From positions 1 to 64,000 of IMG/VR virus record IMGVR_UViG_3300037518_000322: a stretch of DNA of 64,000 bases, one strand, 5' to 3'. The notes beneath the pieces are model-generated. The model searched no databases. It saw nothing but the letters and a program-made list of their open reading frames with translations, and was not told the DNA's origin. Made by a program: the position numbers and the translations under genes. Within the stretch, counting starts at the first letter, position 1. Each line of letters opens with the position of its first letter. This DNA is from a virus. Below, piece after piece: positions 62,695 to 63,537 of this stretch.

Positions 62695-62799
62695 CACGCA
62701 GAGGTCGAGGTGGTAGTGGTTTCCGGTTGTTCAGACCGGGAGGTTCCTCCGGTGACGGAGGATGGTGAACGAAGTACCCACTGCCGTCGCACCTGCGTG
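62695..62799 (-). ncRNA. Y RNA-like (Y5), distal domain of two hairpins
   Basis: CACGCAGGTGCGA...TCGACCTCTGCGTG terminal bulged helix; GTACTTC motif. Confidence 0.7.
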
Positions 62800-62808
62800 A
62801 AGGTAAAG

Positions 62809-62939
62809 CTGTGCCTGAGGTCAAGGTCGATCACACCGTTTCGTACCAGCGCTCTACCAAGCTGAGCTACTGCGGCGGGATTTGAACCCGCGACCTCTGG
62901 TTCCCATTGAAGCAAGTGTGGTCTGCGCACCAGGCACAG
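62809..62939 (-). ncRNA. YrlA-type Y RNA (Y4) with permuted tRNA-like domain and almost no acceptor stem
   Basis: CTGTGCCTGGTGCGC...TTGACCTCAGGCACAG; T arm then CGCAG then D arm TAGCTCAGCTTGGTAGAGC. Confidence 0.85.
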
Positions 62940-62947
62940 TAAGTTAT

Positions 62948-63027
62948 GCGCGCCTGAGATCAAAGTTGGCGTTCCGGAGTGATTTCACCAAAAGAAGCAT
63001 CCGGGGTGCCATTCGCACCAGGCGCAC
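62948..63027 (-). ncRNA. Short Y RNA-like (Y3)
   Basis: GTGCGCCTGGTGCGAA...TTTGATCTCAGGCGCGC; TGCTTC motif. Confidence 0.75.
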
Positions 63028-63043
63028 GCTGCACGGGAGTTGT

Positions 63044-63131
63044 GGTGACCCTGCTTCCCCGCAGGGGGATGACTTCGTGTCCGTGGAACCTACCCATGCC
63101 TCAGATCCACTGCGTCGTCATCCGGATCACC
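63044..63131 (-). ncRNA. Unassigned three-way-junction RNA
   Basis: GGTGATCC/GGGTCACC, GGATGAC/GTCATCC with inner GTGGA/TCCAC, CTGC/GCAG. Confidence 0.45.
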
Positions 63132-63163
63132 GAATTTTTCAGCACTCTATTGAGTTGTTGAAG

Positions 63164-63235
63164 GGTGAAAGACGGGACTCGAACCCGCGCCATTCCCGGC
63201 GAAACCCGGGGCTCTGCCGCTGAGCTACATTCACC
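63164..63235 (-). tRNA. tRNA-His-like pseudo-tRNA with defective anticodon loop
   Basis: G-1:C73-type extended acceptor (GGTGAATG/CTTTCACC), normal D and T arms, 6-nt loop GTTTCG. Confidence 0.65.
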
Positions 63236-63239
63236 AAGA

Positions 63240-63376
63240 CTGCCCGAGATCAAGTCGGAGACGGAAACAAGTTGCTCTACCAACTGAGCTACCGAGGAGT
63301 TCCCTCCCCAGGCGGGACTTGAACCCGCGACCAACCCATTAATAGTGGAAGTACCCGTTTCCTGCGCACCGGGCAG
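63240..63376 (-). ncRNA. yrlA: YrlA-type Y RNA (Y2) with permuted tRNA-like domain
   Basis: CTGCCCGGTGCGC...TTGATCTCGGGCAG; T arm, loop-closed acceptor stem CTGGGGAG-GGAA-CTCCTCGG, D arm. Confidence 0.88.
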
Positions 63377-63460
63377 ATTGGGTGGCCGTCCATTTGCAGG
63401 TGGGCGGCCACCCTCGAATGTGCACCCACGCCAGCAAGCGCTCACTCGAAGTTGTGTGTT

Positions 63461-63537
63461 GAGCGGCAGAGATCTAAGTCGGCGTCGGATGGTTTTCTTT
63501 GAGAGAGAAGTATCCGAGGTCTTCGCACCTGCCGTTC
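63461..63537 (-). ncRNA. Short Y RNA-like (Y1)
   Basis: GAACGGCAGGTGCGAA...TTAGATCTCTGCCGCTC; TACTTC motif. Confidence 0.7.

What the first reader, a model, noticed from the sequence alone, without database searches (positions are those of the whole stretch)
62695..63537. Modular Y RNA architecture: constant Ro-binding base, a shared T(A/G)CTTC motif and five different distal domains
Seen: all five RNAs have 5' GGTGCG(A/C) pairing with 3' GA(T/C)CTC inside terminal stems of different sequence, which amounts to covariation. Each has a second stem of about 8-12 bp followed by TACTTC or TGCTTC at the same position (Y1 GGATACTTC, Y2 GGGTACTTC, Y3 GGATGCTTC, Y4 CTTGCTTC, Y5 GGGTACTTC). Distal parts differ: full permuted tRNA domain (Y2), elbow-only (Y4), two hairpins (Y5), small loops (Y1, Y3). 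The bulged base appears to be G rather than the C of metazoan Y RNAs. Inference: interchangeable effector modules on one scaffold, with URCUUC as a second protein-binding or tertiary element.
Basis: partly seen in the sequence, partly recalled or inferred. Interest (0 to 1): 0.78.

Follow-up and report, generated by a model that had tools for sequence, protein, structure and literature searches.

The report
Five phage Y RNAs beside Ro60
An uncultured phage of actinobacteria carries five small Y RNAs in a row just upstream of the gene for their partner protein Ro60, all built on one shared base with different tops; this is a known RNA design that the phage has expanded.

Summary
On the minus strand at 62695-63534 lie five RNAs. 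Each has a covarying terminal stem, a 5' GGUGCG(A/C), a 3' GA(U/C)CUC, a second stem, and then U-N-CUUC. A Ro60/TROVE gene lies 834 nt downstream on the same strand.

Homologous arrays of 1-7 such RNAs lie upstream of Ro in 23 of 26 related viral contigs and in several named actinophages. The same scaffold also occurs in at least 120 actinobacterial chromosomes, again upstream of Ro.

It is present in 57 of 58 distinct phage RNAs and in 115 of 118 chromosomal neighbour RNAs, none of which were selected for it. Its consensus is UNCUUC with A dominant. UGCUUC occurs only in this window.

The motif is not a free-standing new element. Its 5' half matches the known YrlA "YUAY" box, and its UUC starts a small hairpin by pairing with GAA or GRR. 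It therefore belongs to the constant scaffold.

Modular Y RNAs (YrlA/YrlB) and phage Y RNAs are already published. The added points are the five-member phage array with conserved paralogue classes, the three short members that match no Rfam family, and the extended junction motif. Ro binding and partners remain untested.

The parts
63548..63575 (-). Promoter-like element ahead of Y1: TTGACG (63575-63570), 16-nt spacer, TAGTGT (63553-63548)
   Evidence: Nearly identical block GTTGAC(A/G)...GGTGATAGTGTGAACGCAC directly upstream of the first Y RNA in L004, L005, L007 and L012, and a looser version in L003. Coordinates. The automatic scan did not list it because the -10 matches only 3 of 6 consensus bases.
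63464..63534 (-). Y1: short Y RNA, terminal stem CGGCAG/CUGCCG, GGUGCGA, UACUUC at 63512-63507, hairpin UUCU-CUCUCAA-AGAA, 3' UUAGAUCUC
   Evidence: No Rfam match. The distal part clusters with L003_4867 and L007_4628.
63380..63449 (-). Two stable hairpins in the Y1-Y2 spacer, role unknown
   Evidence: Fold -43.1 kcal/mol, z -4.63, 0 of 200 shuffles as good. Coordinates.
63240..63376 (-). Y2: YrlA-type Y RNA with V hairpin (loop CUAUUAA), T arm, closed 7-8 bp acceptor-like stem and D arm; UACUUC at 63353-63348
   Evidence: Rfam YrlA 40.0 bits, E 3.4e-6. Consensus structure of 10 class-B RNAs with covariation in stem 2, V hairpin and acceptor-like stem. ARAGORN miscalls its 5' half as tRNA-Asn(att) at 63303-63376.
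63163..63234 (-). tRNA-His-derived tRNA-like gene with a 6-nt loop in place of the anticodon loop
   Evidence: ARAGORN 'tRNA-???'. Rfam tRNA 42 bits. Aligns with the tRNA-His/Gln that sits between class B and class C RNAs in L004, L005, L007 and L012, except in the anticodon arm.
62948..63027 (-). Y3: short Y RNA, two-part stem 2, UGCUUC at 62999-62994, hairpin UUC-UUUUGGU-GAA, then AUCAC
   Evidence: Fold z -3.65. Class-C consensus of 9 RNAs. Clusters with five other loci.
62809..62939 (-). Y4: YrlA-type with T and D arms but no acceptor-like stem; UGCUUC at 62914-62909
   Evidence: Rfam YrlA 36.0 bits, E 4.9e-5. Orthologues L004_4226, L005_3484 and L007_3877 carry a stem-loop where Y4 has CGCA.
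62695..62799 (-). Y5: Y RNA with two distal hairpins; UACUUC at 62776-62771
   Evidence: Fold z -3.38. By eye its nearest relative is L007_4034. No V hairpin found.
60182..61861 (-). Ro60 orthologue (TROVE plus a C-terminal part), 559 aa
   Evidence: Pfam TROVE E 3.8e-18. PHROG 850 'RNA-binding protein' E 5.2e-38. Matches phiLo Ro60 chains 9L5Y/9KOP at E 4.3e-22 over two stretches. 43% identical to 'Ro-like RNA binding protein' of Streptomyces phages.
62008..62493 (-). Context between array and Ro: tRNA-Arg(acg) 62420-62493, small ORF 62073-62363 with a borderline Tad2-like match, tRNA-Ile(gat) 62008-62082
   Evidence: Tad2-like 25.1 bits, cut-off 25.

Best explanation
This is the RNA half of a phage-encoded Ro60 ribonucleoprotein system. 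A conserved sigma-70-like promoter drives a transcript carrying five Y RNAs, a tRNA-like gene and probably the downstream tRNAs and the Ro gene. The RNAs are cut out of this precursor. Each one closes its 5' and 3' ends into a stem holding the Ro-recognition strand GGUGCG(A/C), one base away from the GGUCCGA that Xenopus Ro60 contacts, opposite UUGAYCUC. Above that comes stem 2, the counterpart of the YrlA anticodon-like stem. Next comes the invariant junction U-N-C-U-U-C. Its U-N-C is a short unpaired hinge equivalent to the YrlA YUAY box, whose UA kinks the helix in the Salmonella YrlA crystal structure. Its UUC pairs with GAA or GRR to start a small 'V' hairpin. What follows the hairpin differs between RNAs: a full permuted tRNA mimic (Y2), an elbow-only mimic (Y4), or short loops and hairpins (Y1, Y3, Y5). 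Each type is kept as its own paralogue class across related phages, so the five RNAs most likely load one Ro60 ring with different partners or act as different gates. Shown here by computation: the anatomy, the linkage to Ro, covariation, motif invariance and class conservation. Inferred: Ro binding, processing and distinct partners. My odds are about 0.85 that these are Ro60-bound Y RNAs. They are about 0.45 that the motif's main role is architectural (hinge plus hairpin base), possibly also read by Ro.
For: Linkage: the five RNAs lie 834-1673 nt upstream of a TROVE/Ro60 ORF on the same strand. The pattern RRTSCG-N9-20-TNCTTC occurs 82 times in 61,350 bases just upstream of Ro in 26 related viral loci, against 12 times in 491,054 other bases. 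23 of the 26 loci have at least one hit and 22 have at least two.

Structure: terminal stems covary with no broken pairs in 26 short RNAs (6-15 double changes at 4 of 5 positions). In 80 short RNAs the scaffold is 96.8% paired, 12 of 17 pairs show double changes, and 0 of 500 shuffles reach this; sliding the partners drops pairing to 34-58%.

Motif: 57 of 58 distinct phage RNAs chosen on base features alone carry TNCTTC, starting 18-22 bases from G1. So do 115 of 118 chromosomal neighbour RNAs not chosen on the motif. A hairpin starts exactly at U4 in 103 of 113 chromosomal short RNAs (31.6 expected), its 3' strand is GAA in 97, and its fourth pair covaries (UA 51, GC 13, CG 5). In the phage set the figure is 48 of 58 against 32.1.

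YUAY link: Chen 2014 aligns actinobacterial CGGUUAYC with the YUAY box (Supplementary text 1; section read). Phage forms such as CGGUUACUUC bridge the two. Wang 2018 reports that U23 and A24 kink the stem (passages).

Classes: Y2, Y3 and Y4 cluster with RNAs from 3-5 other loci. The order A, B, tRNA, C, D is shared by the window, L004, L005, L007 and L012.

Promoter: conserved in 5-6 loci.

Precedent: M. smegmatis YrlA and YrlB are both Rsr-bound and cut from one precursor (section read). phiLo Ro60 binds two phage Y-like RNAs and host PNPase (passages).
Against: No experiment or RNA-seq bears on these RNAs. The YrlA model scores for Y2 and Y4 are below Rfam's gathering score, and Y1, Y3 and Y5 match no family. 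Single-sequence folds of Y1, Y2 and Y4 are not better than shuffles (z -1.18 to -1.83). The Ro helix cannot be confirmed by covariation because its 5' strand is invariant. Two registers (G1-G2 pairing with CUC or with GAYC) fit equally well. In more distant phages the 3' strand changes or is lost. Ten of 58 phage RNAs, Y5 among them, keep CUUC without a detectable V hairpin, so pairing alone does not explain the invariance. The structures used were derived from the same alignments, which favours them.
Confidence: 0.7

Rival explanations
1. UNCUUC, with its GAA partner, is a second direct contact for Ro60 itself. It sits about one helical turn above the Ro helix, so it could lie over the ring's basic face or central hole and act as the 'gate' part of the Y RNA.
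For: It is the most conserved element of the whole set. It is kept in phages whose 5' Ro motif differs: GAUGCG in BRock, Alone3 and Rabbitrun, and GCCCGR in VanLee. It is kept in 10 of 58 RNAs that lack the hairpin. Its distance from G1 is fixed at 18-22 nt. Ro is the only protein always encoded alongside. Wang 2018 models the effector module near the basic upper surface of Ro60 (passage).
Against: No structural or binding data exist. Ro proteins in these loci are only 39-66% identical while the motif is invariant. The geometry argument rests on recalled dimensions.
Confidence: 0.25
2. UNCUUC is the docking site of a separate conserved host factor shared by all five RNAs, for example the KH/S1 domains of PNPase or a processing nuclease. 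The distal modules would add further specificity.
For: The motif is pyrimidine-rich and part of it is predicted single-stranded (mean P(unpaired) 0.55-0.60 for U-N-C). PNPase binds the non-Ro end of Deinococcus Yrn1 and the phiLo Y-like RNAs (passages). The same motif occurs in chromosomal and phage RNAs, as expected for a host partner.
Against: Nothing links this sequence to any named protein. UUC is mostly paired.
Confidence: 0.15
3. The stretch CGG-N-UNCUU is the true counterpart of the YrlA Rsr-binding motif GNCGAAN0-1G (...CGAAUGCUU...). The basal GGUGCG helix would then be an extra, metazoan-like clamp, or each RNA would carry two Ro sites.
For: Rfam's YrlA model aligns its cggCga stem to stem 2 and its AUGCuu to AUACUU in Streptomyces chromosomal YrlAs, and does likewise in Y4. 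Y3's CGGAUGCUU differs from the model's CGAAUGCUU at one base. The phiLo Y-like RNAs bind Ro60 with different stoichiometries (abstract).
Against: Chen's structure-guided alignment pairs the basal motif with GNCGAA and UUAC with YUAY, keeping an 8-10 nt spacer in both. Class D RNAs lack CGG before the motif. The model alignments score low (33-51 bits).
Confidence: 0.1
4. The RNAs work without Ro60, as tRNA-mimic decoys or processing punctuation inside a phage tRNA cluster, and the link to Ro is incidental.
For: They are interleaved with tRNAs and a degenerate tRNA-His. V loops of class B read like anticodon loops (CUGUUAA, CUAUUAA), and ARAGORN calls them tRNAs.
Against: There is tight linkage to Ro in 23 of 26 viral loci. 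In the 77 chromosomal loci where Ro was found, Ro lies a median 212 nt downstream on the same strand. The three short RNAs have no tRNA-like part. The shared base resembles the experimentally defined Ro site.
Confidence: 0.07

Closest known systems
Mycobacterium smegmatis YrlA and YrlB (Chen et al. 2014, PMC4201824; sections 5, 6 and 8, Table S2 and Supplementary text 1 read)
   Same: Several Y RNAs lie upstream of rsr on the same strand and are cut from one precursor. One is a permuted tRNA mimic and another is shorter. There is a 5' Ro motif of the GNCGAA type, then a stem, then UUAC (the YUAY box) before a V hairpin.
   Different: Five RNAs instead of two. The base is GGUGCG with a conserved 3' UUGAYCUC, whereas Chen reports only the 5' strand as recognisable in M. 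smegmatis. The box is extended to UNCUUC. Three members lack any T or D arm. The RNAs are phage-encoded.
Chromosomal rsr loci of Streptomyces and relatives (YrlA coordinates in Chen 2014 Table S1; loci found here)
   Same: The same scaffold to the letter: CGGUGCG(A/C)AG, stem 2, UACUUC, UUC/GAA hairpin, UUGAUCUCG. Ro is about 50% identical. A short RNA is flanked by YrlA-type RNAs.
   Different: Two or three RNAs per locus (60 and 52 of 120 loci) against five here. Terminal stems and distal classes differ from those of the window. I found no listing of the short chromosomal RNA in Table S1, but I read only the passages returned by a term search.
Phage Y RNAs already reported: mycobacteriophages such as Bxz1 (one YrlA each), Caulobacter phage CcrColossus (three), Bacillus phage G (Chen 2014 Table S2), and Thermus phage phiLo Yrl1/Yrl2 with phiRo60 (PMC12135203, abstract and passages)
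   Same: A phage-encoded Ro60 with Y-like RNAs immediately upstream. phiRo60 is the closest solved relative of this Ro.
   Different: The array is larger and mixes tRNA-like and short types. In Bxz1 the box reads UUACCUC or UUAUCAAC. The phiLo locus has no UNCUUC pattern hit.
Metazoan and Deinococcus Y RNAs (Ro site GGUCCGA as quoted in Chen 2014; the pairing scheme with 3' UUGACY and a bulged C is recalled)
   Same: A two-stranded Ro helix. GGUGCGA/UUGAYC can be drawn exactly like GGUCCGA/UUGACY with one bulged base.
   Different: The bulged base is G, though it is C in 2 of 3 RNAs of locus L019. There is an extra invariant UC before the terminal stem. The distal domains are tRNA-like.
Rfam RF02553 (YrlA)
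   Same: Y2 and Y4 are its only significant hits apart from tRNAs.
   Different: Scores of 40 and 36 bits against a gathering score of 69. Bxz1 YrlA (32.5 bits) and chromosomal Streptomyces-type YrlAs (33-51 bits) also fail, so the threshold does not fit this clade.

Membership tests
Y RNA (Ro60-associated non-coding RNA) | Bound by Ro60 in vivo | not testable with these tools
   No RNA holder was listed for this stretch. There is no binding assay.
Y RNA (Ro60-associated non-coding RNA) | Encoded within about 4 kb of a Ro60 orthologue on the same strand (criterion used by Chen 2014) | tested here: met
   Ro ORF at 60182-61861 on the minus strand. The RNAs lie 834-1673 nt upstream on the same strand.
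Y RNA (Ro60-associated non-coding RNA) | 5' and 3' ends pair into a long stem that carries the Ro motif (GGUCCGA or GNCGAAN0-1G) on the 5' strand | tested here: met
   Covarying terminal stems. GGUGCGA differs from GGUCCGA at one base. CGAAG (Y1) and CGAAUG (Y3) fit the CGAA core. Y2 and Y4 have CGCAG and Y5 has CGACG.
YrlA (tRNA-like Y RNA, RF02553) | Permuted tRNA-like domain: T arm, closed acceptor-like stem, D arm | tested here: met
   Met by Y2. Y4 has T and D arms only. Y1, Y3 and Y5 have none, so they are not YrlA.
YrlA (tRNA-like Y RNA, RF02553) | Score at or above Rfam's gathering threshold (69 bits) | tested here: not met
   40.0 and 36.0 bits. Accepted members of this clade also fail: Bxz1 at 32.5 bits and Streptomyces-type chromosomal YrlAs at 33-51 bits.
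YrlA (tRNA-like Y RNA, RF02553) | Conserved YUAY box ahead of the V region | tested here: met
   N-UAC in Y1, Y2 and Y5, and AUGC/UUGC in Y3 and Y4, at the position of UUAC in Chen's actinobacterial rows. The A is replaced in 16 of 58 family members.
YrlB-type short Y RNA | Second, shorter Ro-bound RNA beside YrlA that carries the Ro motif | tested here: inconclusive
   Y1, Y3 and Y5 fit the description. No YrlB sequence was available to compare, and binding is untested.
tRNA | Cloverleaf in normal order that scores with the tRNA model | tested here: not met
   The Rfam tRNA model hits only the true tRNAs and the tRNA-His-like gene, none of Y1-Y5. ARAGORN's tRNA-Asn(att) call on Y2 joins the base, V hairpin and T arm.

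The most novel reading that the evidence does not exclude
The UNCUUC junction with its GAA partner is a universal second recognition element of a large actinobacterial and phage Y RNA superfamily. It would be read by Ro60 or by a still unknown common partner, and it is more strictly conserved than the classical Ro helix. Under this reading, actinophages multiplied the scaffold into 5-7 fixed paralogues to redirect Ro60, host PNPase and tRNA-handling enzymes during infection. The tRNA-Asn-like and elbow-only mimics and the anticodon-less tRNA-His could then serve as decoys against tRNA-targeting host defences.
Probability: 0.2. Interest if true: 0.7.

Novelty: new member of a known kind. Interest (0 to 1): 0.4.

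Why it matters
What bacterial Ro60-Y RNA particles do beyond tethering PNPase is still open, and so is the partner of the tRNA-like module (Wang 2018, passages).

This phage lineage offers a natural series. There are five to seven paralogues on one scaffold, with a full tRNA mimic, an elbow-only mimic and three tops with no tRNA-like part. Each is conserved across phages whose Ro proteins are only 54-66% identical.

The invariant UNCUUC/GAA junction is present in about 170 RNAs that were not selected for it (57 of 58 and 115 of 118). It gives a precise target for mutagenesis and probing.

There is also a practical point for annotation. None of the named phage records inspected annotate these RNAs. 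No Rfam family matched the short RNAs in the window or in the four chromosomal loci scanned. ARAGORN turns the 5' half of class-B RNAs into false tRNA-Asn or tRNA-Thr genes.

Tried and rejected
- Sequencing runs: no RNA holder was listed for the stretch, so I did not lay reads.
- RNAalifold on the mixed alignment of 26 short RNAs found only the terminal stem, because MAFFT misaligned stem 2. Class-wise alignments solved this.
- A crude test for stem 2 (longest ungapped helix) gave 5.84 against 4.53 for shuffles. That is too weak to use alone.
- Motif-only pairing of GGTGCG with the nearest GAYCTC was noisy, picking up tRNA T arms and internal GACCTC.
- The IMG/VR pattern census stopped at 121 rows. 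By my own estimate single hits are expected by chance there, so only the multi-hit loci count.
- The idea that U-N-C pairs with the 3' linker, with A to U matched by U to A, held for some class-B RNAs by eye (alignment) but not for classes C or D. I dropped it as a general rule.
- The two registers of the Ro helix could not be told apart.
- The automatic promoter scan missed the conserved promoter and listed no terminator on the RNAs' strand.
- PHROGs and Pfam gave nothing for the neighbouring small ORFs.
- The two reviews PMC10870794 and PMC6047535 are not held, and the supplementary-figure PDF of Chen 2014 cannot be read. Any of these may already show the extended motif or the short Streptomyces RNA.
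- Literature searches found no paper on actinophage Y RNA arrays or on a UACUUC element. That covers the held library only.
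Full report
**What is there.** The window is the first 64 kb of a 116,662-base virus record. Read on the minus strand, 63534-62695 holds five RNAs with one plan:
- a terminal stem of 6-9 bp whose sequence differs in each;
- GGUGCG(A/C) directly after the 5' strand of that stem;
- a second stem;
- then UACUUC (Y1, Y2, Y5) or UGCUUC (Y3, Y4);
- a variable middle;
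- and (U)UNGA(U/C)CUC directly before the 3' strand of the terminal stem.

GGTGCGM alone is at chance level in the window (46 against 46.5). The evidence is the clustered, same-strand, paired arrangement. A loose 5' pattern finds the five together and only scattered hits in coding regions elsewhere in the genome.

Rfam's YrlA model hits Y2 (40.0 bits) and Y4 (36.0 bits), both under the gathering score of 69. It hits nothing in Y1, Y3 or Y5. ARAGORN misreads the 5' half of Y2 as tRNA-Asn(att).

**Surroundings.**
- An ORF at 61861-60182, 834 nt downstream of Y5 on the same strand, is a Ro60 orthologue. Evidence: Pfam TROVE E 3.8e-18, PHROG 850 E 5.2e-38, and E 4.3e-22 to the solved Ro60 of Thermus phage phiLo.
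- Between the array and Ro lie tRNA-Arg, a small ORF with a borderline Tad2-like match, and tRNA-Ile.
- Between Y2 and Y3 sits a tRNA-like gene. It aligns with the tRNA-His or tRNA-Gln found at that spot in related contigs, but it has a 6-nt loop instead of an anticodon loop.
- Upstream of Y1 is TTGACG, 16 nt, then TAGTGT. The same block precedes the first Y RNA in L004, L005, L007 and L012, and in looser form in L003.
- ORFs can be drawn mechanically across the array on both strands. The pattern of conservation, with compensatory stem changes and 1-3 nt indels between orthologues, is that of RNA genes.

**Relatives in viruses.** The Ro protein recovered 26 viral loci at 39-66% identity.
- A filter using base features only (GGTGCG, GAYCTC, terminal stem of 5 bp or more) gave 65 hits. 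Of these, 62 lie upstream of Ro on its strand and 3 look like chance hits in coding sequence.
- Of the 58 distinct array RNAs, 57 have T-N-CTTC and one has TTCATC. The breakdown is TACTTC 42, TTCTTC 7, TCCTTC 6, TGCTTC 2. The U sits at base 18 (35 RNAs), 19 (11), 20 (3), 21 (6) or 22 (3).
- The 5' pattern occurs 82 times in 61,350 bases just upstream of Ro, against 12 times in 491,054 other bases. 23 of 26 loci have at least one hit, 22 have two or more, and the maximum is seven. At least one of the 82 looks like a chance hit.
- Pattern hits upstream of Ro in named phages: 4 in BRock, 4 in Rabbitrun, 5 in Alone3, 3 in Quantum and 1 in Atuin.
- By eye, VanLee has four RNAs and JustBecause one that keep UUACUUC although their 5' motif differs.
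- phiLo has no pattern hit. None of these records annotate the RNAs.

**Relatives in cells.** This changed my reading.
They include Streptomyces, Kitasatospora, Lentzea, Micromonospora, Actinomadura and Catenulispora. One hit looks like coding sequence.
- Of these 120 loci, 77 show a Ro orthologue about 50% identical to the window's. In all 77 it lies downstream on the same strand, a median 212 nt away. Only 80 loci had 1.5-kb flanks.
- These loci hold two (60 loci) or three (52 loci) pattern RNAs.
- Their neighbour RNAs, picked on base features and not on the motif, carry TNCTTC in 115 of 118 cases. Two of the three exceptions read UACUCC.
- The scaffold and motif therefore belong to Streptomyces-type Y RNAs in general, and the phage holds an enlarged set.
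- Chen 2014 lists YrlAs for Streptomyces, for example two in S. avermitilis, 81 and 318 nt upstream of Ro. I did not see the short RNA between them listed.

**Structure.**
- Terminal stems covary without broken pairs.
- On 80 short RNAs, the consensus of terminal stem, Ro helix and stem 2 is 96.8% paired with double changes at 12 of 17 pairs. No shuffle out of 500 reaches this, and slid partners fall to 34-58% paired. The structure came from the same alignment, which favours it.
- The base just before the motif's U closes stem 2 (CG 43, UA 18, AU 5, GC 2).
- The motif's UUC opens a hairpin. In 103 of 113 chromosomal short RNAs a hairpin starts exactly at U4, against 31.6 after shuffling. Its 3' strand is GAA in 97, its loop has 7 nt in 68, and its fourth pair covaries.
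- In the phage set the figure is 48 of 58 against 32.1. The ten without a hairpin include Y5.
- In ten class-B RNAs (Y2 type), RNAalifold recovers stem 2, a V hairpin using the last U and C of the motif, the T arm, a covarying acceptor-like stem and the D arm.
- In nine class-C RNAs (Y3 type), it recovers a two-part stem 2, unpaired UAC and a UUC/GAA hairpin.
- Thermodynamic ensembles agree: the two bases before the motif are paired, U-N-C is mostly free (0.55-0.60), and UUC is more often paired.

**Relation to what is known.**
- Chen et al. 2014 (sections 5, 6 and 8, Table S2 and Supplementary text 1 read) describe YrlA RNAs next to Ro60 in 254 bacteria and 22 phages. They describe a 5' motif GNCGAAN0-1G likened to the GGUCCGA contacted by Xenopus Ro60, and a conserved YUAY that 'begins the V loop'. 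They also show that M. smegmatis YrlA and YrlB are both Rsr-bound and cut from one precursor.
- In their alignment the actinobacterial rows read CGGUUAYC at the YUAY position. Phage forms such as CGGUUACUUC link that to the motif here.
- Wang et al. 2018 (passages) state that Y RNAs are modular and that U23 and A24 kink the anticodon-like stem of Salmonella YrlA.
- The phiLo study (abstract and passages) shows a phage Ro60 binding two phage Y-like RNAs and host PNPase.
- The modular reading is therefore the established model, and the motif's 5' half is a known box.
- Not found in the held literature: the CUUC extension and its GAA partner, its presence in Y RNAs without any tRNA-like part, the short Streptomyces-type RNA, and actinophage arrays of five to seven.
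- Two reviews and one supplementary PDF could not be read.
- Rfam's model aligns stem 2 plus UACUU to its own cggCga plus AUGCuu. I treat this as a rival homology rather than the likeliest one, because Chen's alignment keeps both elements and their spacing.

**Paralogue classes.**
- Distal parts cluster across loci: Y3 with five others, Y2 with four, Y4 with three, and Y1 with two. Y5 clusters alone, and L007_4034 resembles it by eye.
- Going by terminal-stem types and the tRNA calls, the order A, B, tRNA, C, D is shared by the window, L004, L005, L007 and L012.
- Y4 lacks the acceptor-like stem-loop that its three orthologues have.
- I saw no evidence of module exchange. The classes look like old duplicates kept apart.

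**How it most likely works, and what is open.** The best reading is a phage Ro60 particle system: one transcript, five Y RNAs sharing a Ro-binding base and a hinge-plus-hairpin junction, and five tops that give different partners or gating. Ro binding, processing sites and partners are inferred. The invariance of CUUC in RNAs without the hairpin, and of both UUC and GAA where it forms, points to sequence-specific reading by Ro60 or another common factor. This cannot be decided here.

**Earlier notes of this scan.** These are unchecked AI notes. They report tandem sets of three to five Y RNAs beside Ro60 in an acidobacterium and in planctomycetes, and YrlA plus a shorter Y RNA in two actinobacteria. 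A count of five is therefore not in itself unusual. My searches agree with the actinobacterial notes.

**Verdict.** This is a real, well-supported phage Y RNA array and a new member of a known kind. It comes with a useful refinement of the shared scaffold. Interest 0.4.

Noticed in passing
window 63163-63234 (-): A tRNA-His-derived gene whose anticodon arm is replaced by a 5-bp stem with a 6-nt loop (GUUUCG). It occupies the slot where related contigs have an intact tRNA-His or tRNA-Gln. ARAGORN also reports 'tRNA-???' genes with 2-nt anticodons in L021 and L026.
   Followed up: partly
window 63380-63449 (-): Two very stable hairpins fill the Y1-Y2 spacer (-43.1 kcal/mol, z -4.63). Their role is unknown and I did not check whether they are conserved in relatives.
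   Followed up: partly
window 63028-63162 (-): A 135-nt stretch between the tRNA-His-like gene and Y3 has no counterpart in relatives, whose gap there is about 25 nt. It contains GGTGAT...GGATCTGAGG, which faintly recalls a decayed Y RNA base. Its fold is not better than shuffles (z -1.45).
   Followed up: partly
window 62073-62363 (-): A small ORF (96 aa) inside the tRNA/Y RNA cluster has a borderline Pfam match to the Thoeris anti-defence Tad2-like domain (25.1 bits, cut-off 25) and a match to PHROG 1048 of unknown function.
   Followed up: no
spacers after Y RNAs, e.g. window 62940-62947 and 63450-63463 (-); L003, L007, L012, L014, L015: AACTT occurs within 20 nt downstream of 7 of 58 Y RNAs, against about 0.44 expected. 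ACAACUUCA-like words also precede several arrays. From memory this resembles the RN/CNU preference reported for mycobacterial RNase E, so it may be a processing signal. I did not check this against a paper.
   Followed up: partly
L021 4464-4613: One array member has its D arm before its T arm, with an anticodon-like arm between them. That is tRNA order rather than the permuted YrlA order, on the same GGUGCG/UUCUUC scaffold.
   Followed up: no
L005 3146-3219, L007 3535-3609, L010 3343-3415; window 63303-63376: ARAGORN calls the 5' half of class-B Y RNAs as tRNA-Thr(ggt), tRNA-Asn(att) or tRNA-Asn(gtt), because the V hairpin has a 7-nt anticodon-like loop (CUGUUAA and similar) followed by a T arm. 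Phage tRNA counts may be inflated this way.
   Followed up: partly
L019 4632 and 4829: Two of the three Y RNAs in this viral contig read GGUCCG, the metazoan form with C at the presumed bulge, instead of GGUGCG.
   Followed up: no
L008, L009, L011, L014, L015, L027: These 'viral' contigs carry only two or three Y RNAs. Their terminal stems (CCUCCC, GGGUGCCC) are those of the chromosomal Streptomyces-type loci. They may be cellular fragments or prophage-adjacent DNA rather than phage genomes.
   Followed up: no
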